This document shows, in pieces, positions 479-37,933 of a stretch of 64,000 nt of DNA. This stretch comes from Patescibacteria group bacterium (GTDB lineage Bacteria > Patescibacteriota > Minisyncoccia > Phycocordibacterales > UBA918): assembly GCA_038065355.1 (NCBI GenBank), contig JBBTRC010000005.1:30530-94529 (forward strand), in the 5' to 3' direction. Under the pieces are notes generated by a model. The model saw nothing but the letters and a program-made list of their open reading frames with translations. It ran no database searches and had not been told where the DNA came from. Numbering within the stretch: the stretch's first letter is position 1; every line of letters starts with the position of its first letter. A program made the translations under genes and the position numbers.

Positions 479-2233
479 TTATTTGCGACGATCGGTTAAT
501 TTTTTAACGTCCATAATTTCCTTCTCAACGGCCTGTTCGGAAGTCTGGAGAGCCTTGTCAAAATGCTCGAGCATCGCCATTTCAACTTTTGACAATTTCT
601 TAGTCTTTCTGGTCTCAGTCAGCGATGTCTCATATTCACGAAGTTTCTGCTGAAGCGCGTTGAATTCACGATGCAAAATTTCGAGCGCCTCGGTTGATTC
701 GGCTCCGACTTTGGTCCTAAACCGTCGCCAGGACAGGTAGAGTAACCAGAAACCGAGCACCAATAACGCGATGAGACCGAGGAGCGGAATAACTACCGAG
801 AGTACGTTGATGAGAAGTGATCCAATACGTATAAAGCCAGACTGTTGAACGGCAATCCTAATAACTTCAGAACGTTCGCTCTTGGCCCCATAGCTATCGG
901 TTGCGATAGCGGAAAGTTCGTAGACGCCGAGCGAAAAGCGGGCTTCGGGAATGAAAGTAAATGTACCGTGTTCGTCGCTTTGTACTGTATACAGTGAGAC
1001 GGCGTTACCAATTTTTTGCAGTGAGACTTCGACCGTTGCACCGGGTTTTGTTTTACCTTTTATGACCGGAATGACTGTTTCGCTTACTTCAGTCGGGTAT
1101 TCGGTGAATACGGGCCTAGCGAAGGCTTCAATAGTAAGCGCGTACGTAGCGATAAGGCTGTTGGCGGCACGGTCAAATGCTTCGATGATCACCGTGTGAT
1201 AGCCGGGCAAAAGCGATGGCAACGCGATGGTATTTGAGGCGTTTTTGTCTATAAATTCAAATGGTTCCGCTGCGTCAATTTTGACCAGGTAGCGGCCTAT
1301 TCCTGAGGTGACATCGACTACCTTGAGCTTCAAAGTTGGCTGTGGATTACCTAGGTCGGAATTTTCCGTCGATTCGATGGTGAAAGAGATTGGCTTTTCC
1401 GTATCAACAGCCATTTTATAGTGAGTTACTTTTCCCCAGCCATCAGCATTTCTAAATTGGATGTGAAAATAAGAAGCTCCTTCCGGCAAGTCAGGCAGTG
1501 AAATTGAAGAAATTGGCTCATCATATACTTTGGTAGGAATAGTGCTCGGAGATTGATCGAGTAGAGTTCGGACGCTCGTCACTCCGCTTGGGACATTCCA
1601 GGTTAGCTCAGCAGTCTTTTGTGCATACCAGGCGTTTGTATCTGCGTGCGTGGTTGAAACGACTTGCGGTGCGGCCGGGGTATTGGCCGGCGCTACGTAT
1701 TCGATTACTTCAGGCGTCGGCGCTATCGTGGCCGCTTGAATCGTGTAACTGCCGCCATTCATGGCAGTAAGCACATTCGTGCCTTTGCCGTCATTAGCCA
1801 GGACCGAACCACCGGTAAAGGAAACCCGGGGTGCTCCCGCACCGGCCGCTCGGAACGTGATGGTCATAATGGCACCGGCACTGCCGGTGTAGCCAGTCGG
1901 CGATCCGCCGCTAAAACTGATAGTTCCGGCACTGTTTGAAAATGTTGGCTCGGTAACCCAGAGGTTGAATATCGAACTCGACCGACTGACGGCAGTGACC
2001 GAGAGTTCTCGCGGGTTAAAGCTTAACGTACCGTCAGCGGCATTCACCGCTTGCCCGTTCGTGTTTACCATCACTCGTACAGAAAATGTACCGTTTGCTT
2101 GGTACACCCCAGTGGCTGGAGAAAGTGATAAGGTCGCGGCTTCGGCCGACGAAGCCAGCGAAAAAGTAAAAAACAGTAGCGCAAAAGCAAAAAATAATTT
2201 TTTGATGGGTAGTTGTGTAAAATAGCTAGTCAT
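479..2233 (-). CDS. Scaffoldin-like membrane protein. Signal peptide, N-terminal cohesin-like domain, Ig-like region, single TM helix, cytoplasmic coiled-coil tail. Paralog of 30818..32356.
   Basis: 584-aa ORF. Cohesin-like signature SIFNLWVTEPTFSNSAGTISFSGGSPTGYTGSAGAIMTITFRA. TM LLGLIALLVLGFWLLYL followed by a heptad-rich charged tail. Collinear similarity to the 512-aa ORF at 30818..32356. Confidence 0.75.
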   Translation of the reverse strand: MTSYFTQLPIKKLFFAFALLFFTFSLASSAEAATLSLSPATGVYQANGTFSVRVMVNTNGQAVNAADGTLSFNPRELSVTAVSRSSSIFNLWVTEPTFSNSAGTISFSGGSPTGYTGSAGAIMTITFRAAGAGAPRVSFTGGSVLANDGKGTNVLTAMNGGSYTIQAATIAPTPEVIEYVAPANTPAAPQVVSTTHADTNAWYAQKTAELTWNVPSGVTSVRTLLDQSPSTIPTKVYDEPISSISLPDLPEGASYFHIQFRNADGWGKVTHYKMAVDTEKPISFTIESTENSDLGNPQPTLKLKVVDVTSGIGRYLVKIDAAEPFEFIDKNASNTIALPSLLPGYHTVIIEAFDRAANSLIATYALTIEAFARPVFTEYPTEVSETVIPVIKGKTKPGATVEVSLQKIGNAVSLYTVQSDEHGTFTFIPEARFSLGVYELSAIATDSYGAKSERSEVIRIAVQQSGFIRIGSLLINVLSVVIPLLGLIALLVLGFWLLYLSWRRFRTKVGAESTEALEILHREFNALQQKLREYETSLTETRKTKKLSKVEMAMLEHFDKALQTSEQAVEKEIMDVKKLTDRRK

Positions 2234-3284
2234 ATAGAGAAGTGGGTGTTTCTATTTCTTTGTTCATTTCTTCCTCCTCGGGCGTAGCCAACCTCTTCCG
2301 ACGTCGGATGACATGCGTGACAACGATGCCGCCCACGACGAGCAACATGACCACCAAGAGAGCCAACACTCCGTTAAGAATCTGTACTGTAGCAATACCA
2401 CGCATGCTTGAATCCGGCACCAGGGTTGCAATGTATTCGTTCCCGGCCTTATCAAGCGCCCGTACACGGATAATGCTGTTGAGCGATTGGTCTTTGAGCA
2501 CGTAGGGACTGCGGGCAGTTATCCATGGTGCATCGGCGCGGCCCCAGATGAAGGTGCCAAATTCAGCTAGTGGCTGTTCTATTACTTGGTACTGGTCGAC
2601 GCCGGTTTGTTTGTCGGTGGTGTTAAACACAATGTAGTGTTTGCCTCCAAACGCCAACGTGTCCTTTTCGAGAGCGATACTAAACTCTTCCGGCGGCCTA
2701 ACGTCAGCCTGGACTGCTTCACGCCACGGGTCTTCCAACACCGCACCAGCTTTTTTTGTGAGCGCTATGGTCGCGCCGTAGACGGTGGGAGCCACCACAG
2801 TACCTTGCCCGTCGTTTAAATAGGCCGATGTAGCAGGATCAAAGTCAATATGAGCCACTGCGTCGTTCTCTCCACCAATAGCAAAGCCGGGTGATCTAAA
2901 AATTATGTTGATGAGATTATTGGTGAGGCGCGGGTCGCCTGAAATGCGACCGCAGTAACCATTTGGAATTCCGCCGGCAAAAGTGATAGTGCGTTTGTCC
3001 TTGTTAATGATGGGGTTTTCAACCCAGACATTAAAAATCGAATCTCCGATGGAGATATCAATCGGCACGACATTTTCGGTGTAAGTAATGACGGCGTCAA
3101 TCGCGTTCACGCATTCTTGTGCCGCCTCATCAACATCGAGCCGAACCGCGAGTGTGATGGCATCGCCGCGGTTGATCTCGCTGTGACCCGGGTCTATATA
3201 CAGAGACGCGGCAGTGGCCGAAAACGGCACAGCAACGCTACAAAAAAACAGCCCGAGGATAGCAATTCCTAACTTCCCTTTCAT
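2226..3284 (-). CDS. Secreted cohesin-like domain protein with C-terminal TM anchor and basic RRRKR tail.
   Basis: 352-aa ORF. Signal peptide. Motif IFNVWVENPIINKDKRTITFAGGIPNGYCG resembles the cohesin-like domains of 479..2233 and 30818..32356. C-terminal LALLVVMLLVVGGIVV + RRRKR. Overlaps the downstream gene by 8 nt. Confidence 0.7.
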   Translation of the reverse strand: MKGKLGIAILGLFFCSVAVPFSATAASLYIDPGHSEINRGDAITLAVRLDVDEAAQECVNAIDAVITYTENVVPIDISIGDSIFNVWVENPIINKDKRTITFAGGIPNGYCGRISGDPRLTNNLINIIFRSPGFAIGGENDAVAHIDFDPATSAYLNDGQGTVVAPTVYGATIALTKKAGAVLEDPWREAVQADVRPPEEFSIALEKDTLAFGGKHYIVFNTTDKQTGVDQYQVIEQPLAEFGTFIWGRADAPWITARSPYVLKDQSLNSIIRVRALDKAGNEYIATLVPDSSMRGIATVQILNGVLALLVVMLLVVGGIVVTHVIRRRKRLATPEEEEMNKEIETPTSLYD

Positions 3285-3335
3285 ATTCTAGATTATAGCA
3301 GTGAGACAACTCTGAAATGTAACCTGTGCACATAC

Positions 3336-3371
3336 AAAAAACCCTTCTCGTGGTGGGAGATAGGGTTTTTT
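3336..3371 (-). terminator. Stem-loop flanked by A/T runs (aaaaaaccc...gggtttttt); candidate intrinsic terminator after the 3399..4556 gene.
   Basis: Inverted repeat with T-run visible on both strands, 28-60 nt downstream of the stop codon at 3399. Confidence 0.5.
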
Positions 3372-3398
3372 GATTACTCCAAGCTTAGAGCCAATTTT

Positions 3399-4556
3399 TT
3401 AGAAAACTGGTGTTGCTACGTATGTCAACGTAGCTGTGTAGTCGCTAGCTGCTTCCTGCAAGCCGCCAATTTCTACTTTGTAACCGACACGAGTGGTTCC
3501 TTCTCCCTGTCCGGTGCCATCAGCGGGACCGGTGTGCCGAAACACTTCAACTGGTGACGTGAGAGCCGCAACAAAGCGATCCCCGCCGCTACCTACGTTG
3601 AAAGGATTGGTAAGTCCACTCGTGAGAGTGTCGTCATCTGAAGCAACGCCCCAGTGACCGTACGTATCTTCATCTCCGAGAGTCTCAGATGGCGCTTCCC
3701 AAGCAACGGCAACAGTATCTCCGTTACCGTTTCGGAACGAATCGATATCGGCACCATTGGTTGAGCTGAGTTGCTGGTCTGTGACTACCGTGACGACGAA
3801 ACCGTTGCGGGCGTTCGTTGTCACCGCGAGATCTTGAGCGGCAGTACTGGCTGTGTTGGCAGACAGTTCACCAAACGGAATTGTGGTGGCCGTTGTGGCA
3901 CCTCCGGTCGTGTCAGCTGTGTTGACTGCTTGGCCGCTTGTGACTCCACTCACTGTAAAAGTAAAGATGGTGTCGACAGAAGCGGTAACAGTCACTGAGC
4001 TAAGAATCATGACACGAGTTGAACCCGTGTCTGATGCTCCGGCTGTTGCGTTGATCTCATACGAACCAGCGGCAGGGTTGGTGAGCTGTGCGTTACCAGC
4101 ACCTCCTGAAGTGGCGTTGAGGCCAATTTCAATGGTGGTGGTACCGTTCGTTGGAATCGAGCCTCCGTCACCTGCACAAAACGTGATGGTGAGAGTCGTT
4201 CCTGAAAACGCTGCACTCGCTTGTTCCGAACCCGTACAATCAGCCGCTAACGTGAAATCTGAGGTGGTCGCAACGTCAATGTCGGTGTCATTCACTGAAC
4301 CAACGACGAATGGACCATCTGCAAAATCAAGTGTTATGGTTGACCCGTTTGCTACTCCGGTCGGAGTGGTAAACACGATGGTATGGTCTGACGCAACAGT
4401 CGGCGCTGAATCCGAAAGTGTGTCGCTAAAAGAGCTGACATTAGCAGCTTCCGCAAAGCGGAGTGACGGTAAACCTACTGACCAAAGAAAGATGGCGAGG
4501 CCCACAATCGCTGCTGTGGCTTGGAGCACGGAGAACGTTTGTGACGTTCTGTGCAT
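3399..4556 (-). CDS. Secreted Thr/Gly/Ser-rich beta-rich protein, 385 aa, monocistronic. Paralog of 36482..37636. Candidate major surface structural subunit.
   Basis: Signal peptide. Central ~170 aa near-identical to the 36482..37636 product (SDHTIVFTTPTGVANG...AADCTG...AAFSGTTLTITFCAGDGGSIP). Both end ...TLTY(V/I)ATP(V/T)F. Own hairpin downstream. Confidence 0.7.
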   Translation of the reverse strand: MHRTSQTFSVLQATAAIVGLAIFLWSVGLPSLRFAEAANVSSFSDTLSDSAPTVASDHTIVFTTPTGVANGSTITLDFADGPFVVGSVNDTDIDVATTSDFTLAADCTGSEQASAAFSGTTLTITFCAGDGGSIPTNGTTTIEIGLNATSGGAGNAQLTNPAAGSYEINATAGASDTGSTRVMILSSVTVTASVDTIFTFTVSGVTSGQAVNTADTTGGATTATTIPFGELSANTASTAAQDLAVTTNARNGFVVTVVTDQQLSSTNGADIDSFRNGNGDTVAVAWEAPSETLGDEDTYGHWGVASDDDTLTSGLTNPFNVGSGGDRFVAALTSPVEVFRHTGPADGTGQGEGTTRVGYKVEIGGLQEAASDYTATLTYVATPVF

Positions 4557-4706
4557 ATACTCTACGTTGTATTAGCTCACAGACTTATAGCACGTGGTGT
4601 GTGCTACAACCAAGAAAACTTGTGTCGACATACTGGTCTCCACTCCGGTATGCTGAAAAGACGAACTGTGAACATACGTATTTGGTAACACTCGGCTGAA
4701 GCATCC

Positions 4707-4745
4707 CCGGCACCTTCTCTCGTCACTGCCGAGAGAAGGTGCCGG
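4707..4745 (-). terminator. Perfect 16-bp GC-rich hairpin (ccggcaccttctctcg / cgagagaaggtgccgg, 7-nt loop) downstream of the dockerin gene. No U-tract. Terminator-like or regulatory structure.
   Basis: Exact inverted repeat read directly from the sequence, in the 288-nt intergenic region 4557..4844. Confidence 0.4.
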
Positions 4746-4844
4746 GCAGTAGCATTAAATTGACTACCTCCCAAATATGTACTCCTTCATTGTACGATGC
4801 ACCCCAATCTATCCCTTGCAGTTATGCACAAATCTTTATTCATT

Positions 4845-5978
4845 TTATCCGCTCCAATTAAAAAGAAGAATCGAGAAGTCCTCAAGACTCACCCGACCGT
4901 TCCCGTTAATGTCAGCCGGGGGGTCTGAGTCTCCGCCATTGGTTTGCCACCAAAAAATCAAAATTGAAAAGTCGGTAAGATTAATTTTGCCATCGCGATT
5001 CAAGTCAGAGGGTGTAGTCGCACGACCTTCTATGCCCACAAAAAGCTGCAGGGAGCTGCTGAAACTACTTTGTGACGTGAGTGGCGGCGTACCGGCCACC
5101 GTGCGGGCGCGGAGTGTGTGTTCAGCTATGGATAACTGACTGGTGTTTAGACTAATGCTCCAGCTACCGTTAGCCGCCACGCTGGTTCGCTCAATGACGG
5201 TGCTGTTGTCGACATGTAGCTCAAGGGTGGTGTTGGGAACAGACTGACCAGATACAGTGACAGCCGCTCCTGGAATCACATTTGGGTTCGTGACTCGTAT
5301 CGTAGGCGGTAACAGCACGCCGTTAATATTCGTAATGGCGCCTTGCGTCACATCAAAAGTAGTATTGAGGGTGATCGACCGCGTGCCGCTCGTGTCGGTT
5401 GACCACACTCCAAGGGTGGCAGTTCCGGGCGATGCTTCAGCAGCGAACTCAAACGCGCCGCTACTGTTTGACTGTACTGAGCCGACAGATTCAGTGTCAA
5501 TTAAAAAATTTACAGTTCGCGACGGATAGGCTCTTCCGATAACGTTAATTTGGGTGTCTCCAAGATCACGATTACTACCACCGCCGCCGCCAGAGGAGCC
5601 GCCCGAGGAGCCGCCGCCGCCCGAACCGGCCGGCTCGACTTCACAAATTGCCGAGCAGAAGTCACCGTCGGTGTTGTTACCGTCGTCACATTCTTCTTGG
5701 TGAATTGTTTGCAAAATTCCGTCGCCGCAGTAAGGTCCAAATAAACACGAAACGGTGCACTGCCTACCGGCTATGGTTTGGCTATACACTCCGGTTTCGC
5801 CCGGCACGTCACATTGCTCACCGGGATCAACAATGATATTGCCACAAACACTTAAAGTGAGAGTGGTAGTAGCGGTAAACTGTGCCGCTACCGGTGTGGG
5901 CGTAAAGACTCCTAGCGCGTAAACGCACACCAGGGCTACCACCGCAGAGAATGTACAAAAAATGCTAACCTTTCCCAT
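4845..5978 (-). CDS. Secreted dockerin-containing protein with Myxococcus-type cysteine-rich repeats, a Gly/Ser linker and Ig-like repeats. Paralogous C-terminal region to 32919..34814.
   Basis: 377-aa ORF. Signal peptide. Cys-rich repeats (CGNIIVDPGEQCD...CGDGILQ...EECDDGNNTDGDFCSAIC). Linker GGGGSSGGSSGGGGGS. C-terminal duplicated dockerin-type segment DLNRDGKINLTDFSILIFWW...DINGNGRVSLEDFSILLFNW. Confidence 0.75.
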   Translation of the reverse strand: MGKVSIFCTFSAVVALVCVYALGVFTPTPVAAQFTATTTLTLSVCGNIIVDPGEQCDVPGETGVYSQTIAGRQCTVSCLFGPYCGDGILQTIHQEECDDGNNTDGDFCSAICEVEPAGSGGGGSSGGSSGGGGGSNRDLGDTQINVIGRAYPSRTVNFLIDTESVGSVQSNSSGAFEFAAEASPGTATLGVWSTDTSGTRSITLNTTFDVTQGAITNINGVLLPPTIRVTNPNVIPGAAVTVSGQSVPNTTLELHVDNSTVIERTSVAANGSWSISLNTSQLSIAEHTLRARTVAGTPPLTSQSSFSSSLQLFVGIEGRATTPSDLNRDGKINLTDFSILIFWWQTNGGDSDPPADINGNGRVSLEDFSILLFNWSG

Positions 5979-6924
5979 GACGCTTTCGTCGGCGTATGTG
6001 TAGGAAGTAGAGAATCACAATAAGCAGTGAGAAAATCGGCAACAAGACTGAAACTTTGTGCGCGAGTGAAAGCCCAATAAAGCCGAAGCTTGCGACCTGC
6101 AGCGTACCCTCCGGCAAAATACTAAGGCTAAGGTCGCCCTCCTGTTTTATATCTTCCCCATTAAGAATTCGATATCGTGCAATGTAGCTGTCAGCGGGCA
6201 GACGAGTCGGTAATTCGGCCAATACCTCACCGGTCGCGTATGGCGCTATCGGTTTCATTTTGCCAATGTTTTTTGTCTCCTCAAGTAGTACTTTGCCAGT
6301 CCGATCATAAATACGAAAATCCACTTTCGAAGGTGCAATATCGACGTTGCCAGTGTTTTCCACTAACATTTTAAAGCGGATTTTTCCGGGGAAAAATAAC
6401 CACCCGAGCTTGTGCCCTTCGTTTAAATCATCAACGGCCACTTTTCTAATGCGAAAATCTTTTATCTGTTTATCAATGACTGACAACTCAATGTCAACGA
6501 GTGCGCCGAGAGAAATACTCACCGCGCCTATTGCCACTTGTCCGTCCTCCGGCACCGTGCGAATGCGAATCGAACCTTCGTATTCCTTAAACTCAGCATC
6601 AGACGGCACGGTGACCCGTACTGTCATAGGTACCTTTTGTTCACCTCGCGGCAAGGAAATATTTTCACCCTCAACTATTTCTATCCAGGATTCAATTTCT
6701 GGAGCGTCGATGGTGATCTCCGCTTTTTGCGCCACATCAGGGTCACCGCGTACCAGGAGAATTTGCTGTTCATACACTGAGTTGCGAGTCAGGCTGGTGT
6801 TCTTCACATACGGCGGTGTAATACCAAAACCAGCAAAAACATCAGTCACGCCGGCACTGAAAAAAAACACTGGTACCAGCATAGAGACCACACACAGCTG
6901 TCGCGCTAACCCGCCCATGGACAA
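5965..6924 (-). CDS. Tail-anchored cell-surface protein: signal peptide, beta-rich ectodomain, C-terminal TM and RRRKRHGKG tail. Paralogous architecture to 35286..36356.
   Basis: 319-aa ORF. N-terminal signal LVPVFFFSAGVTDVFA. C-terminal LLPIFSLLIVILYFLHI + RRRKR. Overlaps the dockerin gene start by 14 nt. Confidence 0.65.
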   Translation of the reverse strand: MSMGGLARQLCVVSMLVPVFFFSAGVTDVFAGFGITPPYVKNTSLTRNSVYEQQILLVRGDPDVAQKAEITIDAPEIESWIEIVEGENISLPRGEQKVPMTVRVTVPSDAEFKEYEGSIRIRTVPEDGQVAIGAVSISLGALVDIELSVIDKQIKDFRIRKVAVDDLNEGHKLGWLFFPGKIRFKMLVENTGNVDIAPSKVDFRIYDRTGKVLLEETKNIGKMKPIAPYATGEVLAELPTRLPADSYIARYRILNGEDIKQEGDLSLSILPEGTLQVASFGFIGLSLAHKVSVLLPIFSLLIVILYFLHIRRRKRHGKG

Positions 6925-7014: not shown

Positions 7015-8889
7015 TTACCAGTCGGTCGCTTCGGCCGTGACCGCGTAGAAAGTGTTGAGTCCTTGGTAGCTACCAGCGAGCGTGATGGAGATTGGTACGG
7101 AGATACCCCAGTAGGTCACTCCCGAACTTGGAGTTGAAGTGCTCGTTGTTTTGGCGACATCAAGTTCGACTTCTTGCACCGTTGATGAGGAAAGGATAAT
7201 AGCAAGCGGGCTGTTGTATGCCAGTGAGGTCGAGGCGAATTGTTGTTCGCTTTCAGGAATAGTTGAAGTAGCTGAGGGTGCGCATTCACTGCCAATGGCA
7301 AACGTACCGCACATTGATTCACCTTCAACTTCCTGGTCAAGCCCAGTGTTACCCACTGATAAGACAGAGGTAGTTGCGCTGAGCGTGCCGGTGTCGTCAC
7401 CTGGTTCAAGAGACCCGTACGGAATTTGAGCGGTGAGCAAATCAAGCGCAGTGAAACTAATCAGTTCAACCGGGTTGGTAGTCGTGGCCATTGAACTAGT
7501 CGCAAAGTCATCATCTGCCCCAGCTATTCCGACAGACCAGTTATCAGCCGCAAACGCCGCTGGCGTTTCGGGTGCCGCGTCGGTTGGGTCAGCTACGAAC
7601 CATAATGGGAACGTACAAGTATAGTCGAGTTGGTCGACGAATGGGCTGGTGCACTGCGTGCTCGAGGCAGTACAGCTTAAGTTCCAGGTTGTTGTTGCAA
7701 GGCCATTCGGGTAACAATAATTTGGATTATACGAACCAGCCGCGCCGGTACAGGTAGTGGTGCCGTAACTTGATCTGAACACAGATACTACGTAATCGGT
7801 AATCTCTGAACTTGAAGCGGAGGTCAGACAGCTGTTCGCATCACGAACGGTGAAGTCAAGTGTAAAGCCGGTTGTCTCGGCTCCCTCCTGAGTCAACGTA
7901 ATGTTTGAACCACTATTAAGGCTTATATCGCCGCCGAGGACAACCGGCGCAACGTTATTGACGGTGAAGTTTGATTGGTCGGGGTTAGCTAACGCTTCGT
8001 GTCCATGTTCGTCGATAATATAGCCGTAGGCTGGGTAGGGTGCGTCGCGCAAGATTGAAGCCAGCGTGTATGCCGCGTCTGCGTCAGCCGCCACACCGAC
8101 GGTGGTCGAGGCTAAGAAAGCAGATCCGCAAGAGTTGGTGGTAGGGTTGTAGCTGGTGTTGTCACTACAGACAATTAGATATATGTCATCCTCTCCCCCG
8201 ACGGAATCAGGGTCAGTTGAAGTTGAATTAAAGGTCACGATATCCCCGGGATCCTTCGGGCCGTCGTTCCAGACATTAGTCAAGACCGGGCGACTATTGA
8301 CGTTGAACGGTGACGAATTTGTCGCGCTGAAGCCCTGCACTGGCGTTGCATTACAGCGAGGATTGAATGGATCGTCGTCGCAGACCCAGGCGTACCAAGT
8401 GTTGAGTTCTGCGAAAGGTGCTACTTCTGCGGTAGTGGTAGAGACGCTGGCCAGCGCGCCGCTCGCGGCCGCCGTTGAAACTCCCCATTGTGTACCGCCA
8501 CCACAATCAGGCGGAGCGGTGCCTAGGTTGCCCGGACCAGCGGCCGCGTTGGCGGTCGGAGTGGCATTCGAACTACAAACAAGAAGGAAATACGGGGCGC
8601 CGTTACTGTCTGTGGCCACCGCCGCGAACTGGATGGCGGTACCAGAATTAGTGGGTGATGAAGTTGAGGATTCCACCACCTCATAGGCATCGGTTGTAAA
8701 GAAAGGCGGTGTGTTAAGCACCGTGAGCGTCGTCGTGGCCGACTGCGCTGACACCTTACTCAACTGCTGCGTTCCGGCATCAAATATGAAAGCCACCAAA
8801 AACACCGCCAAACCTACAACGGCGGTGAAGATGGTTATTTTTCCAGCGGTCTTTAGGTAGCGCGACTGCTCTTCTTTGTTATACAACAT
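7015..8889 (-). CDS. N-terminally anchored Thr/Ser/Cys-rich surface protein, 624 aa. Ends with the same YWGIxVP...QGxNxF motif as the 5531-aa giant protein.
   Basis: N-terminal TM ITIFTAVVGLAVFLVAFIF. Cys-rich mid region. C-terminus TSTPSSGVTYWGISVPISITLAGSYQGLNTFYAV aligns with the giant protein C-terminus. Confidence 0.65.
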   Translation of the reverse strand: MLYNKEEQSRYLKTAGKITIFTAVVGLAVFLVAFIFDAGTQQLSKVSAQSATTTLTVLNTPPFFTTDAYEVVESSTSSPTNSGTAIQFAAVATDSNGAPYFLLVCSSNATPTANAAAGPGNLGTAPPDCGGGTQWGVSTAAASGALASVSTTTAEVAPFAELNTWYAWVCDDDPFNPRCNATPVQGFSATNSSPFNVNSRPVLTNVWNDGPKDPGDIVTFNSTSTDPDSVGGEDDIYLIVCSDNTSYNPTTNSCGSAFLASTTVGVAADADAAYTLASILRDAPYPAYGYIIDEHGHEALANPDQSNFTVNNVAPVVLGGDISLNSGSNITLTQEGAETTGFTLDFTVRDANSCLTSASSSEITDYVVSVFRSSYGTTTCTGAAGSYNPNYCYPNGLATTTWNLSCTASSTQCTSPFVDQLDYTCTFPLWFVADPTDAAPETPAAFAADNWSVGIAGADDDFATSSMATTTNPVELISFTALDLLTAQIPYGSLEPGDDTGTLSATTSVLSVGNTGLDQEVEGESMCGTFAIGSECAPSATSTIPESEQQFASTSLAYNSPLAIILSSSTVQEVELDVAKTTSTSTPSSGVTYWGISVPISITLAGSYQGLNTFYAVTAEATDW

Positions 8890-8966: not shown

Positions 8967-10190
8967 CTATTCATACCGAATCGCGTCCAGCGGATTGAGA
9001 GATCCGGCACGGCGAGCTGGGAAAATGCCGGTGAGGTAGCCAACGGCGGCGGAGAAAAGTGCGATAAAAAGAAGAAAATCAAGCGGGAACGAAAACAGTG
9101 CCACCGCTTGACCGCCAAATTGACTGGCCAAGACGTTAAGAAAAAGGTTCACCGTCACCCCTAAGGTGACGCCGAGCACAATGCCGCTTAGCCCGCCAAG
9201 AAAACCAACAACGATCGACTCGGAAACGAACAAATTTTTTACATCGTTCGGTGACGCGCCGATGGTGCGCATGATGCCGATTTCTTTGGTACGTTCGAGC
9301 AGTGTCACCGTCATGGTGTTAAACATGCCAATCGCGGACACAACGAGCGCAATGCCACCAAACGTGGCGAGTACCACTTGTATTCCTTGAAAAATCTTGG
9401 AGGCCTGTTCGACGGTCTTTGACAACGCGGTAACGCGGTACCCCTTCTCAATCAGCCAATCTTCAACTGTTGCTAAATTTTCATTCGAATCAACGCGCAC
9501 TTGGATGCGCTCAAATTCTTCTATACCGACGTAATTGCGAAGTTCTGGTAGCATCATCATCACATTGAGTACACCTTCTTCTTTAGTAATGCCGCGTACG
9601 GTGTATTCTTTGTCGATCACAATTTCGTTCACAGCGTCGGTCCCGTCATCGGCCGGCACAAGGAGTCGAAACGACACTTTTTGTCCAATGAACGCATCCA
9701 TTTCTTCGTCAGTAATTCCGAACAATTTTAAAATTGCTGGAGACAGCATAACTGAATTCACATCCCCCGCGTCAGCGTCGGTGAACACCTCTCCGGCGAT
9801 AGCAGTCACGCCGGCGTAGCGAAGATACGGCGGTTCGACTCCCTGCACAAAGACGTTTCCAGTGAGACCCTTGTAGGTGACAAGCGCAGGAAAGCGCGCC
9901 AAGGGTGCCGCATCGAGTACCGCTTCGTTGTTTTCAAATTCGGTAATGGTTTCTGGAGTAAGTCGCAGACCTTGCGCGCCGGTTGAGGAAACGCCGAGTG
10001 AAAGCAGAGTCTCTCCAAAGACAATCTGCTCAAGAATAATTTTTTGCAGGCCGAACCCGAGCCCCACCAAGACAACGACCGCACCGGTGCCGACACCCAT
10101 ACCCAAAATCGTCAACCACGTACGCATCGGGTTGGTTTTGAACATACGCGTCGAAAGCTGTGCCAAGTCTTGCACTCTCACACCAACCAT
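8967..10190 (-). CDS. ABC transporter permease, MacB/FtsX family: N-terminal TM, large extracytoplasmic domain, C-terminal FtsX-type three-TM bundle.
   Basis: 407-aa ORF. Topology and C-terminal region (LATFGGIALVVSAIGMFNTMTVTLLERTKEIGIMRTIGASPNDV) are typical of MacB/LolE-type permeases. Confidence 0.8.
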   Translation of the reverse strand: MVGVRVQDLAQLSTRMFKTNPMRTWLTILGMGVGTGAVVVLVGLGFGLQKIILEQIVFGETLLSLGVSSTGAQGLRLTPETITEFENNEAVLDAAPLARFPALVTYKGLTGNVFVQGVEPPYLRYAGVTAIAGEVFTDADAGDVNSVMLSPAILKLFGITDEEMDAFIGQKVSFRLLVPADDGTDAVNEIVIDKEYTVRGITKEEGVLNVMMMLPELRNYVGIEEFERIQVRVDSNENLATVEDWLIEKGYRVTALSKTVEQASKIFQGIQVVLATFGGIALVVSAIGMFNTMTVTLLERTKEIGIMRTIGASPNDVKNLFVSESIVVGFLGGLSGIVLGVTLGVTVNLFLNVLASQFGGQAVALFSFPLDFLLFIALFSAAVGYLTGIFPARRAGSLNPLDAIRYE

Positions 10191-10210: not shown

Positions 10211-11533
10211 TTAACTCTTGTAACTCACATCAACTCCCTGTGCGATTACTTTCTCGAAGTAGCGCGTGATATCGTCTGCCTCTTTCTCATCGAGGCCAAG
10301 ACCGCCCGCCCGTACCCCCTTCATCAATCGTTCATTAAATTCTTCATCCTCAATCACACCGGTCACCCGATCAGCAATCAGCTCGGTAAGATTTTCATCC
10401 TGCTCTTTGTTGAGCTTTACTCGGTGTTGTTGGATCAAGTGTTCGCGTAGTCGTTCTGACAATTTGTGCTGACTAAAAAAGATACCGTCGTTGTCTTTGC
10501 GCGCTCTGAATCGCTTGATATCAAGTGCATTCTCCATCATACGACCGGCGATGGTAGCCATTTTGCGCGCTTCTGCCTCCGGCACCTCGACGCCGCCTTT
10601 TTCTAAAGGCAAGACGAGACTTTTTATGTAAGCGTCGCGGTCGATTTTTCCTTTGATAAACATACCCGAAGCGCGCTCCAGCCGGATCAGCTGGTCGAAA
10701 GTGTAGTCTTGCGTCAAATAGTTGACTAAGCTCTTCACTCGGAGCGTGTCCACTGAGTCGTAGGGGTACAGTCGAGCCAGTTGTTCGAGCTCGGTGACGA
10801 TCGTCTCACCTTCCTGCACTGGCTTGATTTGCTTGCGCTGTGGGTTGACGACTTCACGAACGATGAGGCCGTCCTTGAGGTAGTAGACTCGGTGCGCATA
10901 GCTCAAGTGAGCGGCGTTGTGTGACACCATAATGATAGTACGGCGATCGAAGGTGTTGATTTCATCAATTTTATCCATCACTTGCTGTGTCGAAACAGAG
11001 TCAAGGTTGCCAGTTGGTTCGTCTGCGAGAAGAATCTTGGGGTCGTTTACCATCGAACGCGCCACCGACACGCGTTGTTGTTGACCGCCGGAGAGCATAG
11101 CGGGGATTTTATGCGAAACATGCCCCACGCCAAAACGATCGAGAAGCATCTGGGCGCGACGTTCTCTGGTAGTTTTGTCTACGTCGCAAAAAATCATCGG
11201 TAGCGCTACGTTGTCGAGCACCGAGAGCGATTGAATCAGGTTGAATGACTGAAAAATAATTCCCATCACGAAGCGCTGGAAATACACACGCTCGGCCGGC
11301 GGGTACGAATAGATATCGTCACCACGAATGAGGAGCGTGCCCTCGCCAGGCGGAAGTGAGCCTTGAATGGAATACATGAGGGTCGACTTGCCCGAGCCTG
11401 ATGCGCCGAAAAGAATGATGTACTCACCCTCAAAAATATCAGTGTTCACGCCCGTGAGCGCTTTAAATTCGTTCGACTTCCCCTTATTGTAGATAATCGA
11501 AAGATCCCGACAGACGATAAGCGGCTTGGCCAT
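10211..11533 (-). CDS. ABC transporter ATP-binding protein, MacB/LolD-like, with an unusual ~200-aa C-terminal extension of unknown function.
   Basis: Walker A GASGSGKST, ABC signature LSGGQQQRVSVARS and Walker B ILLADEPTGNLD, all within residues ~20-240. Residues ~240-440 carry no recognisable motif. Confidence 0.85.
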   Translation of the reverse strand: MAKPLIVCRDLSIIYNKGKSNEFKALTGVNTDIFEGEYIILFGASGSGKSTLMYSIQGSLPPGEGTLLIRGDDIYSYPPAERVYFQRFVMGIIFQSFNLIQSLSVLDNVALPMIFCDVDKTTRERRAQMLLDRFGVGHVSHKIPAMLSGGQQQRVSVARSMVNDPKILLADEPTGNLDSVSTQQVMDKIDEINTFDRRTIIMVSHNAAHLSYAHRVYYLKDGLIVREVVNPQRKQIKPVQEGETIVTELEQLARLYPYDSVDTLRVKSLVNYLTQDYTFDQLIRLERASGMFIKGKIDRDAYIKSLVLPLEKGGVEVPEAEARKMATIAGRMMENALDIKRFRARKDNDGIFFSQHKLSERLREHLIQQHRVKLNKEQDENLTELIADRVTGVIEDEEFNERLMKGVRAGGLGLDEKEADDITRYFEKVIAQGVDVSYKS

Positions 11534-30817: not shown

Positions 30818-32356
30818 TTACTTCAAAATTGACTTTACGTCATTAATTTCTTTTTCGATCAAGGTTTCCGAAACTTCAAGCGCTTGAGCTAGACCTTCCA
30901 CTGCCTGCTTTTCATTCTTGGAAAGTCGTTTGCGTTTGGTAATAGTGTTCACTTGGTCGTAAATTTCGTCACGAAGCGCCGAAAATATTTTTTCCATTTG
31001 ATCTTGTATTTCTCTTGTCTCCCGACGAAGTTTTTCTTCTTTTTCCCTCAGCTGTTTATGCTCGTACCAGTAGTACACGATTTGAAGTAGAATTATAACA
31101 ATCAAGAACGCGATGAAGAGGTTCGTTGGAGTAAGAAAGTCGAACAACGACACCTCCTCCACCACTTCAACGGGCTTTACCCAGCCAGCCGTTATGAGTA
31201 CGGCGGTACTGCCTTCCCGCACGTTGCCGGCTTTGTCGGTCGCCACTACCTTTACGGTGTAGGTGCCATCTTCAAGTTCCTTCAGCAAATACCCAAGTCG
31301 TGCCTCATCAGGAGTGATGTGAATTGGCTCTTTATTGGCCACCGTCATATCGTAGTACTCGATACCGGAGGTAAGATCCTTCGCCTCAAAGACTATAAGT
31401 GGGAACGAGTTTGGTGTGGTACCCGCGCGTACGCTGATAGCAAACGGTTGCGGCGGCTGTGTGTCGATTTGCAACTTGCGGTTCGTGACCGCGCCCCAGC
31501 CAACTTGGTTTTGGAAGTTTACGCTCACGTACTGAACGCCCTCTTTTAGCAACTCACTGGACACCGCAAATTCTTCAACCGGCGGATCGAGGACTGCATC
31601 TTCATTCTCTTCAGGTTTGTTGTCACTGTCGCTCGCAATCTCGACCGCAACCGCCGTTATATCGAATGGGAGTGTCCAGGTGAAGACTCCCTCGGTTTTG
31701 TTGTACCACACGTCTGGATCAAGGAAAGTCTGTGAGCCAACTTCCGGAGGCCGCGGAGGATCGCCAAAGATAATGGCTTCGTCCTCGTCAGTGTTTGGCG
31801 TTGGTGTGACCGAAGAAGGAGGCGGGGTTGGTGTCGGAGTTGGTGTCGCCGCACCAGTGATTGTATAGTTTCCGCCGGTTGAGTTCTTATACACATCGGT
31901 GCCGCGTCCATCAGCGGCCAAGACAGAGGCGTTACTGAAAGTGACACTGCCGGCTCCCTGTGCCACCGTACGGAAGGTGATCGTCAGAATATTTGATGTA
32001 TTGCTAAATGGAGTCGGACTACCGCCGCCGAAGCTCACCGTACCATTGGCGTTTGAAAAAGTTGGTTCGGTCGTCCAGAGCGAAAACACCGACCCGTCCT
32101 TACTCACACTCACTACCGAAAGCGCTTTAGGATCAAATTTTAGCGTCGACTCAACCGCGTTTACGTTGTCCCCATTGGGGGCAACCTTGACTACGGTGGT
32201 GAAAGTCTGGCCTGCGGCGTACGTCCCGGTACTCGGCGTGAGGGACAAGTCGGCAGCAAACACACTCGTATGAAAGGCAAAGAAAAACAAACCGACCACT
32301 AACGGGAGTAAGTGCAGTTTGAATTTCTGTAATAATGTTGGAAGGGACTGTGACAT
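30818..32356 (-). CDS. Scaffoldin-like membrane protein, paralog of 479..2233. Signal peptide, cohesin-like domain, Pro/Thr linker, Ig-like region, TM, cytoplasmic coiled-coil tail.
   Basis: 512-aa ORF. VFSLWTTEPTFSNANGTVSFGGGSPTPFSNTSNILTITFRT aligns with the 479..2233 cohesin-like motif. TM FIAFLIVIILLQIVYYW followed by EKEEKLRRETREIQDQ... heptads. Confidence 0.75.
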   Translation of the reverse strand: MSQSLPTLLQKFKLHLLPLVVGLFFFAFHTSVFAADLSLTPSTGTYAAGQTFTTVVKVAPNGDNVNAVESTLKFDPKALSVVSVSKDGSVFSLWTTEPTFSNANGTVSFGGGSPTPFSNTSNILTITFRTVAQGAGSVTFSNASVLAADGRGTDVYKNSTGGNYTITGAATPTPTPTPPPSSVTPTPNTDEDEAIIFGDPPRPPEVGSQTFLDPDVWYNKTEGVFTWTLPFDITAVAVEIASDSDNKPEENEDAVLDPPVEEFAVSSELLKEGVQYVSVNFQNQVGWGAVTNRKLQIDTQPPQPFAISVRAGTTPNSFPLIVFEAKDLTSGIEYYDMTVANKEPIHITPDEARLGYLLKELEDGTYTVKVVATDKAGNVREGSTAVLITAGWVKPVEVVEEVSLFDFLTPTNLFIAFLIVIILLQIVYYWYEHKQLREKEEKLRRETREIQDQMEKIFSALRDEIYDQVNTITKRKRLSKNEKQAVEGLAQALEVSETLIEKEINDVKSILK

Positions 32357-36433: not shown

Positions 36434-36465
36434 TACACAAAAACCTCCCGAGGGAGGTGTTTGTG
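36434..36465 (-). terminator. Rho-independent terminator after the 36482..37636 gene: GC stem cctcc-cgag-ggagg extended with an A/U-rich stem, followed by a U-run on the minus strand.
   Basis: Inverted repeat 20-50 nt downstream of the stop codon at 36482. Confidence 0.5.
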
Positions 36466-36481
36466 CGTAGGAACTACTACG

Positions 36482-37636: not shown

Positions 37637-37933
37637 GTTTTATTGATTATTGAATAAATAACTAATTGCTTCTGCGCGACAACTTGCGAAGCAGCTCGAT
37701 TGACGGTGGAGATATGAGAGCTTTTTTATGAAAAGATTCAGCCTGAAAAAAGTTCTTATATGTCGTCAATCGATCTTCCTTTATTTTACTTTGTCTTTAA
37801 AGTGCTGTCCTTAGTAGTGCTGTTGATAACCTTTTATCCGTGACTTTTGTTCCTTTTAAAAATCGTTTATTTATGGCCCAGCTACACTTTTTCGAAGACA
37901 CACTTGATATAAGACTTATGGTACACGTGTCTA

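What the first reader, a model, noticed from the sequence alone, without database searches (positions are those of the whole stretch)
3399..4556. Paralogous, individually terminated 385-aa secreted proteins ending in ...TLTY(V/I)ATP(V/T)F: candidate major structural subunit
3399..4556 and 36482..37636 are ~70% identical over the central half. Each has its own upstream AT-rich region and its own downstream terminator hairpin, so each is monocistronic and probably strongly expressed. Both are Thr/Gly/Ser/Ala-rich with almost no charged or hydrophobic stretches and end in an aromatic residue. That composition and transcript organisation are typical of abundant structural surface subunits such as S-layer, pilus-shaft or sheath proteins. 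Two divergent copies in the two cassettes would allow antigenic alternation.
Basis: partly seen in the sequence, partly recalled or inferred. Interest (0 to 1): 0.55.

Follow-up and report, generated by a model that had tools for sequence, protein, structure and literature searches.

The report
Pam-like pilus subunits in Parcubacteria
The two look-alike secreted proteins are most likely the building blocks of a thin surface filament (a "Pam"-type pilus, first described in 2026 in other ultra-small bacteria), each encoded near a membrane-anchored helper protein of the kind that assembles such filaments.

Summary
Both ORFs are real but lie on the minus strand: 385 and 384 aa, 61% identical (E 7e-142). 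Each has a Sec signal peptide and its own downstream hairpin plus U-run. They belong to a large family, unnamed in every source name seen, from Parcubacteria/Paceibacteria: 2073 cluster representatives and 254 loci in GTDB species genomes. AlphaFold2 (pLDDT 93) gives a nine-strand beta-sandwich N-domain, an unpaired 13-residue linker and a beta C-domain. The C-domain matches NCBIfam NF058581, "Pam pilus system pilin subunit". Matches are below the curated cut-off but end to end, and occur in 74 of 120 family members. Each copy lies near a gene for a secreted, C-terminally membrane-anchored two-Ig-domain protein of the DUF916/WxLIP family. Its best fold matches are E. faecium WxLIP and chaperone-usher chaperones (CfaA, FimC, PapD, Caf1M). 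58 of 80 related loci carry such a gene within 3 kb. Best reading: two major subunits of a donor-strand-exchange pilus, a divergent Parcubacterial branch of the Pam system. The "two cassettes for antigenic alternation" idea is not supported. Both paralogs sit in one conserved supercluster of about 37 kb. Copy 2 is a mosaic with a type-1 N-domain in a type-2 gene. Expression level and filament formation remain untested.

The parts
3399..4556 (-). Pilin-like subunit, copy 1 (385 aa). Signal peptide 1-38, nine-strand beta-sandwich N-domain about 39-184, linker (putative donor strand) about 185-197, C-domain about 198-385 ending TLTYVATPVF.
   Evidence: ORF. AF2 model pLDDT 93.3. NF058581 CPR_Pam_pilin_C 19.2 bits. 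Exact match to a MAG 'hypothetical protein' AAB388_00720.
36482..37636 (-). Pilin-like subunit, copy 2 (384 aa). Mosaic: type-2 signal peptide and C-domain with a type-1 N-domain.
   Evidence: ORF. 61% identical to copy 1. NF058581 22.4 bits, profile positions 4-148 of 148 on residues 223-384. Region-wise identities to positional orthologs.
3335..3372 (-). Terminator-like hairpin plus U-run downstream of copy 1.
   Evidence: Fold of 3325..3398(-): -22.9 kcal/mol, z -3.25.
36435..36466 (-). Intrinsic-terminator-like hairpin plus U-run downstream of copy 2.
   Evidence: Terminator scan. Fold z -3.59.
4706..4746 (-). Strong 20-bp hairpin between the upstream dockerin gene and copy 1. It has no U-run. 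It probably insulates copy 1 from upstream transcription.
   Evidence: Fold -39.6 kcal/mol, z -6.0. Inverted repeat I1.
35286..36356 (-). WxLIP/DUF916-type putative pilus chaperone (356 aa): signal peptide, two beta-sandwich domains, C-terminal transmembrane helix, RRRR. Immediately downstream of copy 2.
   Evidence: PF06030 matched by 32 of 33 family members, best E 3.4e-11. AF2 model. Foldseek top hits 9i25_C/9i1y WxLIP (E 6e-12), then CfaA, EcpB, FimC, Caf1M, PapD. Profile against PDB sequences: EfmWxLIP1, E 3.9e-4.
5965..6924 (-). Second, divergent WxLIP-like putative chaperone (319 aa; signal peptide, beta ectodomain, C-terminal TM helix, RRRKR). Two genes upstream of copy 1.
   Evidence: BLASTP E 2e-6 to 35286..36356. 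hhalign against the DUF916 family alignment: probability 96.7%, E 3.6e-10, 179 columns. Architecture.
32919..34814 (-). 631-aa secreted protein. It shares the pilin signal peptide, N-domain and linker (…IAIVEKVSVPNVDT), then diverges into Ig-like domains and a C-terminal dockerin. Candidate pilus terminator/anchor adaptor (inferred).
   Evidence: A2 HMM positions 17-192, E 7.8e-20. Dockerin_1 E 5.8e-9.
34859..35260 (-). Small (133 aa) two-TM/coiled-coil membrane protein. It is conserved between the chaperone gene and the 631-aa gene in other genomes. Role unknown.
   Evidence: ORF. Syntenic 133-141 aa genes in L011 and L012.
30818..32356 (-). Cohesin-domain protein with a C-terminal TM helix (512 aa). 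Possible membrane receptor for the dockerin proteins (inferred).
   Evidence: Pfam Cohesin 31.1 bits, above the cut-off. TM segment 402-433.
2226..3284 (-). Cohesin-like, C-terminally TM-anchored protein (352 aa) directly downstream of copy 1.
   Evidence: BLASTP E 5e-10 to the cohesin region of 30818..32356. TM 294-328.
479..2233 (-). Cohesin/Big_13 TM-anchored protein (584 aa).
   Evidence: Big_13. The ortholog in L009 hits PF00963 Cohesin. TM 465-503.
4845..5978 (-). Secreted DUF4215/Ig/dockerin protein (377 aa) between the chaperone-like gene and copy 1.
   Evidence: Pfam DUF4215, Big_6, Dockerin_1.
7015..8889 (-). 624-aa secreted or anchored protein. Its C-terminal ~150 aa shows the same motif order as the pilin C-domain (IPYGSLEPG … VGNTGLDQ … YWGISVP…YQGLNTFYAVTAE). 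Candidate tip subunit; unproven.
   Evidence: Sequence. hhalign finds only the IPFG motif in register, P 0.049, not significant. Syntenic in L007 and L009.

Best explanation
The two genes encode paralogous major subunits of a chaperone-assisted, donor-strand-exchange surface filament. This filament is a divergent Parcubacteria/Paceibacteria branch of the CPR 'Pam' pilus.

Proposed mechanism:
1. Each preprotein is exported by Sec and cleaved after AxA. The signal-peptide features are seen in the sequence; export and cleavage are inferred.
2. The mature protein has a nine-strand beta-sandwich N-domain, a strongly conserved linker with alternating hydrophobic residues (V-x-V-T-A-x-V-x-T-x-F-T-F-T-V), and a C-terminal Ig-like domain homologous to the Pam pilin C-domain. 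Domains are predicted; homology is shown at family level.
3. The C-domain is held in an assembly-competent state by a membrane-anchored two-Ig-domain WxLIP/PapD-like chaperone (35286..36356 for copy 2, 5965..6924 for copy 1), which lends it a strand. The chaperone fold and the gene linkage are shown; the interaction is inferred from the WxLIP-WxL and PamC/D-pilin models.
4. The linker of the next subunit then replaces the chaperone strand, giving a linear filament of head-to-tail subunits. This is inferred by analogy with the PamA/PamB cryo-EM structures.
5. The two paralogs would form distinct stretches or distinct filaments, as PamA and PamB do.
6. The 631-aa protein carries the N-domain and linker but no acceptor C-domain, and ends in a dockerin. 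It is a plausible terminator that ties the filament base to the TM-anchored cohesin proteins. This step is speculative.
For: Family-level homology of the C-domain to NF058581 'Pam pilus system pilin subunit':
- 74 of 120 family members match at E<=0.01, best 1.5e-10.
- All 10 divergent members scanned individually matched; 7 of them aligned across profile positions 2-4 to 148 of 148, and all matches ran to their own C-terminus.
- Window copy 2 aligns to positions 4-148.

Architecture equals that published for PamA/B, namely signal peptide, 9-strand N-sandwich, single linker strand, C-domain:
- The AF2 model has pLDDT 93.3.
- It has exactly nine N-domain strands.
- It has a 13-residue linker that is not paired in the monomer, followed by a beta C-domain.

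Conservation follows the pattern the Pam paper reports, with linker and C-domain most conserved. Mean top-residue frequency is 0.61 for the linker, 0.55 for the C-domain, 0.72 for the last 25 residues and 0.40 for the N-domain. There is a conserved Cys107-Cys127 pair.

Partner gene:
- DUF916/WxLIP family.
- Two Ig domains plus a C-terminal TM helix, as described for PamC/PamD.
- Best fold matches are WxLIP, then chaperone-usher chaperones.
- A second divergent paralog lies near copy 1.

Linkage:
- 58 of 80 GTDB loci carry a WxLIP-like ORF within 3 kb on the same strand.
- Distant lineages have compact chaperone-pilin-pilin-chaperone operons.
- The supercluster is syntenic across genomes.

There is no sortase signal, no type IV prepilin signal and no enzyme domain.
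Against: - Both window proteins score far below the curated NF058581 cut-off (19.2 and 22.4 against 55 bits). The 10 family members scored individually also stayed below it (16-31 bits).
- No direct comparison with the PamA/B structures was possible. PDB 25PZ/25QA are not in the library copies, and neither profile search against PDB sequences found a Pam chain: A1 gave only two insignificant unrelated matches and A2 gave none.
- Foldseek of the pilin model returned only generic two-Ig adhesins, plus a single-domain BslA match, among its top 50 PDB hits.
- The acceptor groove could not be inspected, and no multimer prediction could be run.
- In Firmicutes the homologous WxLIP is thought to form a stable surface complex, not to polymerise its partner.
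- The gene context differs from the compact pam operon.
- Nothing here shows a filament or high expression.
Confidence: 0.66

Rival explanations
1. Non-polymerising WxL-type surface complex. The C-domain works like the WxL domain of Firmicutes: it docks permanently onto the membrane-anchored WxLIP-like protein by strand complementation, possibly also onto the cell wall. It displays the N-domain as a monomeric surface or adhesion module, and no filament forms.
For: The partner is a genuine WxLIP homolog by sequence and fold. A WxLIP-long WxL complex exists as a solved structure (9i25). The WxLIP paper models a WxLIP strand completing the WxL sandwich (PMC10599100). The C-domain shows the WxL motif order: xFG; N/D-x-R-G-x-G-[WF]-x-[LV]-x-V; Y-x-x-x-L-x-[WY]-x-x-x-P.
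Against: No Pfam WxL hit in any of the 120 members. Profile-profile comparison was not significant. The significant sequence link is to the filament-forming Pam pilins. The linker is the most conserved segment outside the C-terminus, which is expected for a donated strand and not for a passive tether. A second protein carries N-domain plus linker without the C-domain, which makes sense only if the linker is itself a binding element.
Confidence: 0.2
2. Subunit of an S-layer or sheath (2-D lattice) covering the cell, as the first reader also proposed.
For: Acidic, Thr/Ser/Gly/Ala-rich secreted protein of about 35 kDa with its own terminator. Very widespread in the lineage.
Against: No S-layer-type domain or anchor in Pfam or NCBIfam. 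The homology and the partner gene both point to strand-exchange fibres. Two Ig-like domains joined by a conserved strand is the Pam filament plan.
Confidence: 0.07
3. Two alternative antigenic variants expressed one at a time (phase or antigenic alternation between two cassettes).
For: There are two paralogs with separate transcription signals. The C-domains have diverged to about 50% identity.
Against: Each paralog has positional orthologs in other genomes, so the duplication is old and both copies are retained. The neighbours are not duplicated cassettes. The upstream regions share no element. No promoter-flanking inverted repeats of invertible-element size were found. The N-domain is homogenised here (81% identity), not diversified. 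PamA and PamB are co-expressed and co-assembled in the studied system.
Confidence: 0.04

Closest known systems
Pam pilins PamA/PamB of Candidatus Mycosynbacter amalyticus (CPR, Saccharimonadia); NCBIfam NF058581; bioRxiv 10.64898/2026.03.03.709456
   Same: - Sec signal peptide, nine-strand beta-sandwich N-domain, single linker strand and Ig-like C-domain.
- C-domain detectably homologous at family level.
- Size close to PamB (38.7 kDa).
- Two paralogous major subunits.
- Paired cysteines.
- Two membrane-anchored PapD-like chaperone genes nearby.
- No usher and no sortase signal.
   Different: - Scores are below the curated family cut-off.
- The lineage is Parcubacteria/Paceibacteria, whereas the paper stresses Saccharimonadia and Microgenomatia.
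- The pilin genes are individually terminated and lie 33 kb apart in a supercluster. That supercluster also holds a 5531-aa giant protein, a MacB-type ABC transporter and cohesin/dockerin proteins, instead of a compact pam operon next to ATP synthase genes.
- No PamR-like (RbmA-like, TM-anchored) or CTD-only PamT-like gene was recognised.
- N-domain homology was not tested.
WxL / WxLIP (DUF916-DUF3324) surface-protein clusters of Firmicutes (Enterococcus, Listeria, Lactiplantibacillus); PMC10599100; PDB 9i25, 9i1y
   Same: - The partner protein is a true WxLIP relative: PF06030, the fold, and the plan of signal peptide, two Ig domains and C-terminal TM helix.
- Cluster logic is one membrane-anchored WxLIP plus two partner proteins.
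- A WxLIP strand is predicted to complete the partner's sandwich.
- The C-domain motif order resembles the WxL domain.
   Different: - No Pfam WxL or DUF3324 hit.
- The Trp residues of both WxL motifs are replaced (GFVVTV; TLTYVATP).
- Profile-profile comparison was not significant.
- There is an extra N-domain and linker.
- There is no small LPXTG partner.
- WxL proteins are viewed as peptidoglycan-bound, not as filament subunits.
Chaperone-usher pili of Gram-negative bacteria (Pap/Fim, CFA/I class 5, Caf1, Csu)
   Same: The partner has a two-Ig-domain chaperone fold: CfaA E 2e-11, with FimC, PapD, Caf1M and CsuC also matched. The inferred assembly uses donor-strand complementation and exchange. 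The subunit ends directly after its last beta-strand in a conserved aromatic residue.
   Different: - No usher and no outer membrane.
- The chaperone is membrane-anchored.
- The donor strand is an internal linker, not an N-terminal extension.
- The subunit has two domains.
- There is no sequence similarity to chaperone-usher pilins.
BslA/YweA Ig-type biofilm coat proteins of Bacillus
   Same: One domain of the model superposes on BslA/YweA (TM-score normalised to the target 0.61-0.68, E 3e-4). One family member weakly hits Pfam BslA.
   Different: This is single-domain fold similarity only. No hydrophobic-cap evidence was found and the context is unrelated. Treated as a generic Ig-fold resemblance.

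Membership tests
Pam pilus pilins (NF058581 / PamA-PamB) | Match to the NCBIfam CPR_Pam_pilin_C model at or above its curated cut-off (55 bits) | tested here: not met
   Copy 1 scores 19.2 bits and copy 2 scores 22.4 bits. The 10 family members scored individually reach 16-31 bits. Sub-threshold but consistent: 74 of 120 members match at E<=0.01, best 1.5e-10, and most alignments cover the whole profile and end at the C-terminus.
Pam pilus pilins (NF058581 / PamA-PamB) | Sec signal peptide; nine-strand beta-sandwich N-domain; single linker strand; Ig-like C-domain | tested here: met
   Hydrophobic helix 2-26 and an AxA site. AF2 (pLDDT 93.3): nine strands between residues 41 and 184, an unpaired segment 185-197, and a beta C-domain 198-383. 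This rests on a prediction, not an experiment.
Pam pilus pilins (NF058581 / PamA-PamB) | C-domain is an incomplete (open) Ig fold that accepts the neighbour's linker; filament formed by donor-strand exchange | not testable with these tools
   Model coordinates cannot be inspected. Multimer prediction is not possible. PDB 25PZ/25QA are absent from the libraries. Indirect support only: the linker and C-terminus are the most conserved segments.
Pam pilus pilins (NF058581 / PamA-PamB) | Encoded with PapD/FimC-like chaperones that carry a C-terminal TM helix (PamC/PamD) | tested here: met
   35286..36356: two beta domains plus a TM helix, with Foldseek hits to WxLIP and chaperone-usher chaperones. 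5965..6924 is a paralog. 58 of 80 related loci carry one within 3 kb.
Pam pilus pilins (NF058581 / PamA-PamB) | Accessory subunits PamT (C-domain only), PamE, PamR (RbmA-like with TM anchor) in the same operon | tested here: inconclusive
   The pilin HMM finds only one further protein in the window: N-domain plus linker, no C-domain, with a dockerin. The C-terminus of the 624-aa protein shows the motif order but without significance. No RbmA-like gene was identified.
WxL domain proteins (Pfam PF13731) | Match to the WxL domain model; two Trp-x-Leu motifs | tested here: not met
   None of 120 members hits PF13731. The motif positions carry F-V-V and Y-V/I-A instead of W-x-L. hhalign gives P 0.018 and probability 2.5%. 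Real C-domains score slightly above shuffled ones against a WxL HMM: 14% against 1% exceed 5 bits.
WxL domain proteins (Pfam PF13731) | Clustered with a WxLIP (DUF916-DUF3324-TM) gene | tested here: met
   PF06030 in 32 of 33 family members of the neighbour. Fold and sequence match to EfmWxLIP1. DUF3324 was not detected by Pfam.
Chaperone-usher pilins | Outer-membrane usher gene; N-terminal extension as donor strand; sequence or fold match to chaperone-usher pilins | tested here: not met
   No usher domain appeared among the ORFs of the window that were scanned. No significant match to chaperone-usher pilins by sequence: CFA/I subunit E gave E 1.3. Among the top 50 Foldseek hits the only chaperone-usher entry is a chain of the PapC-PapD-PapG complex (6cd2_B, rank 27, E 2.6e-4, TM 0.19-0.23); its chain identity was not determined, and no clear chaperone-usher pilin match was seen.
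Sortase-assembled (LPXTG) pilins | C-terminal LPXTG sorting signal with hydrophobic tail | tested here: not met
   Both proteins end ...ATP(V/T)F with no sorting signal or C-terminal TM segment.
Type IV pilins | Class III (prepilin peptidase) signal and N-terminal hydrophobic alpha-helix retained in the mature protein | tested here: not met
   The signal ends in AEA|AN or AQA|AN (signal peptidase I type). The mature protein is all-beta in the model.
S-layer proteins | Recognised S-layer or cell-wall-anchoring domain (for example SLH) | tested here: not met
   No such Pfam or NCBIfam hit for the two proteins or for 120 relatives.

The most novel reading that the evidence does not exclude
The CPR Pam pilus and the WxL/WxLIP surface-protein clusters of Firmicutes are two branches of one ancient, usher-less chaperone/donor-strand system of single-membrane bacteria. 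In this view the WxL domain corresponds to the Pam C-domain and WxLIP corresponds to PamC/D. The Parcubacterial branch seen here has a further twist: the filament is terminated and tied to the cell by a protein with the pilin N-domain, the donor linker and a dockerin, which plugs into membrane-anchored cohesins.
Probability: 0.3. Interest if true: 0.78.

Novelty: new variant of a known kind. Interest (0 to 1): 0.55.

Why it matters
Parcubacteria/Paceibacteria are among the most abundant and least understood bacteria, and almost none are cultured. How they touch their hosts is an open question.

This result gives a concrete, testable identity to a very widespread protein family for which every source name seen here is 'hypothetical protein'. 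The family has more than 2000 cluster representatives and 254 loci in GTDB species genomes, and it is proposed to be the shaft of a surface filament.

It extends the just-described Pam pilus beyond the lineages in which it was reported, into territory that the curated model does not yet annotate.

It identifies the Pam-type chaperone as a DUF916/WxLIP protein. That offers a bridge to the long-enigmatic WxL clusters of enterococci, listeriae and lactobacilli, and suggests those clusters too may use strand-exchange assembly.

The conserved supercluster also nominates candidate tip, anchor and export components for experiments.

Tried and rejected
- Pfam on both proteins and on 120 relatives: no family, including no WxL.
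- Profile searches against PDB sequences with A1 and A2: nothing meaningful, and the PamA/B entries are absent.
- Foldseek of the pilin model against PDB: only generic two-Ig adhesins, integrins and a BslA domain match.
- WxL homology, tested four ways:
  - A2 profile against one WxL protein.
  - C-domain profile against 15 WxL domains collected from plasmids L001-L006.
  - Greedy hhalign and real-versus-shuffled HMM scores.
  - WxL proteins against NF058581.
  The alignment is collinear by motif but never significant, so WxL membership is not claimed.
- The last large protein search, on a WxL domain, returned only 5 close hits and gave no useful alignment.
- 'Two paralogous cassettes': the flanking genes of the two copies are not pairwise related.
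- C-terminal domain of the 624-aa protein as a tip acceptor domain: not significant.
- Shared upstream regulatory element or known RNA element: none.
- Invertible-promoter repeats: none of plausible size.
- Sigma-70 promoter scans: no more matches than in shuffles.
- The search for related loci with A2 failed because the alignment is too diverse. A1 was used instead.
Full report
**Observation**

Both ORFs exist as described, but on the minus strand: 3399..4556 (385 aa) and 36482..37636 (384 aa). They are clear paralogs, with 61% identity over 377 aa and E 7e-142. Both start with a hydrophobic helix followed by AEA|AN or AQA|AN, which is a Sec/signal peptidase I signal. Both end in TLTY(V/I)ATP(V/T)F.

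Each gene is followed by a hairpin with a U-run: 3335..3372 (z -3.25) and 36435..36466 (z -3.6). Each is preceded by about 290 nt of non-coding DNA. GC there is 0.455 for copy 1 and 0.35 for copy 2, against 0.505 for the window. A very strong hairpin at 4706..4746 separates copy 1 from the gene upstream.

Two details of the finding are wrong.
- The highly similar part is the N-terminal domain (residues 39-184, 79-81% identity), not the 'central half'. The signal peptides are 30% identical and the C-terminal halves about 50%.
- The proteins are not uncharged. They are strongly acidic, with D+E at 11-13% and K+R at about 2%.

Expression strength cannot be judged from sequence. Promoter-like matches were no more frequent than in shuffles.

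**What the proteins are**

The exact sequence of copy 1 is a 'hypothetical protein' of a Patescibacteria MAG. Close relatives carry Kaiserbacteria or Nomurabacteria labels.

The family is large.
- 2073 representatives at E<=1e-3 among 1.84 billion 50%-identity clusters.
- 254 loci among the GTDB species genomes. Their titles read Parcubacteria, Paceibacterota, Kaiserbacteria, Nomurabacteria, plus generic labels.

Pfam has no model for it. The only informative sequence match is NCBIfam NF058581, 'CPR_Pam_pilin_C, Pam pilus system pilin subunit'.
- The window proteins score 19.2 and 22.4 bits, against a curated cut-off of 55.
- 74 of 120 diverse family members match at E<=0.01, best 1.5e-10.
- All ten divergent members scanned one by one matched. 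Seven of them aligned across profile positions 2-4 to 148 of 148, and all matches ended exactly at the protein's C-terminus.

This is consistent, collinear, family-wide remote homology of the C-terminal domain. It lies outside the curated family boundary.

**The Pam system**

The Pam system was described in a 2026 preprint (bioRxiv 10.64898/2026.03.03.709456). Cryo-EM of filaments from the Saccharimonadia bacterium Ca. Mycosynbacter amalyticus identified two pilins, PamA and PamB.
- Each has a signal peptide, a nine-strand beta-sandwich N-domain, one linker strand and a truncated Ig-like C-domain.
- The linker of one subunit fills the C-domain of its neighbour (donor-strand exchange).
- The operon encodes two PapD/FimC-like chaperones that, unusually, carry a C-terminal transmembrane helix.
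- There is no usher.
- The linker and its binding site are the most conserved parts.
- The pilins contain paired cysteines.
- The pilins rank 2nd and 9th in abundance in whole-cell mass spectrometry.

**Structure prediction**

With a 120-sequence alignment, AlphaFold2 gives a confident model (pLDDT 93.3, pTM 0.74).
- Helix 2-26, the signal peptide.
- Exactly nine strands between residues 41 and 184.
- A 13-residue segment (185-197) that is confident but not paired with any sheet in the monomer.
- A beta C-domain, 198-383.

Conservation follows the Pam pattern. Mean top-residue frequency is 0.40 in the N-domain, 0.61 in the linker, 0.55 in the C-domain and 0.72 in the last 25 residues. The linker consensus V-x-V-T-A-x-V-x-T-x-F-T-F-T-V has the alternating hydrophobic pattern of a donated strand. 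Cys107 and Cys127 are conserved.

**The partner genes**

Directly downstream of copy 2 lies 35286..36356 (356 aa): signal peptide, beta-rich ectodomain, C-terminal TM helix, RRRR.
- Its family is DUF916/WxLIP_PGBD: 32 of 33 members hit PF06030, best E 3.4e-11.
- The AF2 model shows two beta-sandwich domains followed by a long TM helix (pLDDT 78.8).
- Its best PDB fold matches are the E. faecium WxLIP structures 9i25_C and 9i1y (E 6e-12).
- Next comes a long series of chaperone-usher chaperones: CfaA, EcpB, FimC, Caf1M, DraB, CsuC and PapD. RbmA also appears.
- The family profile also finds EfmWxLIP1 by sequence (E 3.9e-4).

Two genes upstream of copy 1, 5965..6924 (319 aa) has the same plan. 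It is a divergent paralog, with BLASTP E 2e-6 and hhalign probability 96.7% (E 3.6e-10 over 179 columns). So this locus has two pilin paralogs and two membrane-anchored PapD-like chaperone paralogs. That is the PamA/B plus PamC/D arrangement.

**Linkage across genomes**

Of 80 related loci fetched with 3-kb flanks, 58 carry a WxLIP-like ORF on the same strand. Most of the rest are cut short by contig ends. More distant lineages have compact chaperone-pilin-pilin-chaperone operons.

Around the window's genes the order is conserved in other Patescibacteria contigs:
1. umuC
2. pilin-2
3. WxLIP
4. 133-aa membrane protein
5. 630-aa dockerin protein
6. HSP20
7. cohesin-TM protein
8. giant protein (5.5-8 thousand aa)
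9. fn3 protein
10. MacB-type ABC transporter
11. 620-aa protein
12. WxLIP-like protein
13. dockerin protein
14. pilin-1
15. two cohesin-TM proteins

Loci L009 and L011 come from one contig. The 'two cassettes' are therefore the two ends of one supercluster of about 37 kb. Their flanking genes are not pairwise paralogous.

**The two copies**

Each copy has positional orthologs elsewhere. Type-1 proteins are 63-73% identical to each other, type-2 proteins 56-60%, and cross-type pairs in other genomes only 43-48%.

Region by region, window copy 2 breaks down as follows.

| Region of copy 2 | Identity to type-2 orthologs | Identity to copy 1 |
|---|---|---|
| Signal peptide | 68-73% | 32% |
| N-domain | 37-40% | 81% |
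| Linker + C-domain | 65-70% | 49% |

Copy 2 is thus a mosaic. An old recombination or conversion event placed a type-1 N-domain in the type-2 gene. DNA identity in that stretch is now only 64-74%, so the event is not recent.

No shared upstream element, known RNA element or invertible-type repeat was found.

**Further parts (inferred)**

The family HMM finds one more protein in the window, 32919..34814 (631 aa). It shares the signal peptide, the N-domain and the linker (E 7.8e-20), then diverges into Ig-like domains and ends in a dockerin. A protein that can donate the strand but has no acceptor domain would stop elongation. Its dockerin could bind the cohesin domains of the TM-anchored proteins 30818..32356, 2226..3284 and 479..2233. 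That gives a plausible anchor, functionally like PamR. This is a hypothesis only.

The C-terminus of the 624-aa protein (7015..8889) repeats the C-domain motif order and could be a tip subunit. The comparison is not significant.

**Relation to WxL clusters**

WxLIP proteins of Firmicutes are encoded with two WxL-domain proteins. A published AlphaFold analysis predicts that a WxLIP strand fills a gap in the WxL sandwich (PMC10599100). A WxLIP-long WxL complex is now in the PDB (9i25).

I collected 15 WxL domains from annotated plasmids. By eye and in a greedy hhalign alignment the motifs are collinear:
- xFG
- [ND]-x-R-G-x-G-[WF]-x-[LV]-x-V
- Y-x-x-x-L-x-[WY]-x-x-x-P

No test reached significance.
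- hhalign gave P 0.018 and probability 2.5%.
- Against a WxL HMM, 14% of real C-domains exceeded 5 bits, compared with 1% of shuffled and 0% of reversed sequences.
- No member hit Pfam WxL.
- No WxL protein hit NF058581.

The chaperone side of the link is solid. The subunit side remains a lead.

**Verdict**

The most likely reading (about 0.66) is that these are the two major subunits of a Pam-type, chaperone-assisted donor-strand-exchange pilus in a Parcubacteria/Paceibacteria genome.

What is shown:
- the paralogy
- the signal-peptide features
- the predicted two-domain architecture
- the family-level homology to the Pam C-domain
- the WxLIP/PapD-like, membrane-anchored partners
- their conserved linkage
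- the mosaic origin of copy 2

What is inferred: the strand exchange itself, filament formation, the division of labour between the paralogs, and the cohesin-dockerin anchoring.

The main rival (about 0.2) is a non-polymerising WxL-like surface complex.

In the searchable literature only the Pam preprint covers this ground, and no paper links DUF916 to Parcubacteria. I therefore class this as a new variant of a recently described kind.

Noticed in passing
window 36482..37636 (-), compared with L011:8803-9870 and L012:8757-9857: Copy 2 is a domain mosaic. Its signal peptide and C-domain are of the 'position-2' type, but its N-domain is of the 'position-1' type: 81% identical to copy 1 and only 37-40% to position-2 orthologs. 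This indicates an old intragenomic domain conversion or recombination.
   Followed up: yes
window 14109..30704 (-): A giant 5531-aa ORF sits in the middle of the supercluster. Syntenic orthologs are 6116-8128 aa, and one hits DUF2341. Its function and its relation to the pilus genes are unknown.
   Followed up: no
window 8967..10190 (-) and 10211..11533 (-): A MacB/LolCE-type ABC permease and its ATPase (440 aa, with a C-terminal extension of about 200 aa) are conserved inside the surface-protein supercluster in several genomes. They may power export or assembly of a cluster component.
   Followed up: partly
window 479..2233, 2226..3284, 30818..32356 (cohesin + TM) and 4845..5978, 32919..34814 (dockerin): The locus encodes a cohesin-dockerin set: three membrane-anchored cohesin-like proteins and two secreted dockerin proteins. 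One dockerin protein carries the pilin N-domain and linker. This suggests a non-cellulosomal cohesin-dockerin anchoring system on the CPR cell surface.
   Followed up: partly
window 42804..43442 (-), 43435..47580 (-), 47608..48576 (-), 48557..49141 (-): A separate surface system lies just beyond the cluster: a sortase, an overlapping 1381-aa SpaA/SdrD_B-domain protein, a 322-aa protein with no Pfam match, and an ECF-type sigma factor. A sortase and sigma factor are also near pilin-2 in L012.
   Followed up: no
window 37934..39196 (-), 41173..41637 (-), 39952..41169 (-): A umuC-like Y-family polymerase and a Peptidase_S24 (UmuD/LexA-like) gene, separated by a GH18 glycosidase, form the conserved right-hand border of the pilin-2 locus in several genomes.
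   Followed up: no
window 37693..37705 and 37764..37776: A 13-nt inverted repeat (92% complementary, 58 nt apart) lies in the AT-rich region upstream of copy 2. It could be an operator-like site and is too small for an invertible promoter.
   Followed up: no
window 3853..4575 (+) and 36930..37370 (+): Long antisense ORFs (240 and 146 aa) overlap both pilin genes. They are probably artefacts of the biased Thr/Ala/Gly/Val codon content.
   Followed up: no
L067, L068, L085, L088, L091, L092: In more distant lineages, pilin homologs and two or three WxLIP-like genes form compact same-strand operons (chaperone-pilin-pilin-chaperone). This is closer to the published pam operon layout than the dispersed arrangement in the window.
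   Followed up: partly
pilin model m6c6cc25ee9d4: One domain of the model superposes on the Bacillus biofilm coat proteins BslA/YweA (TM-score normalised to the target 0.61-0.68). One family member weakly hits Pfam BslA. Which domain matches was not determined.
   Followed up: no
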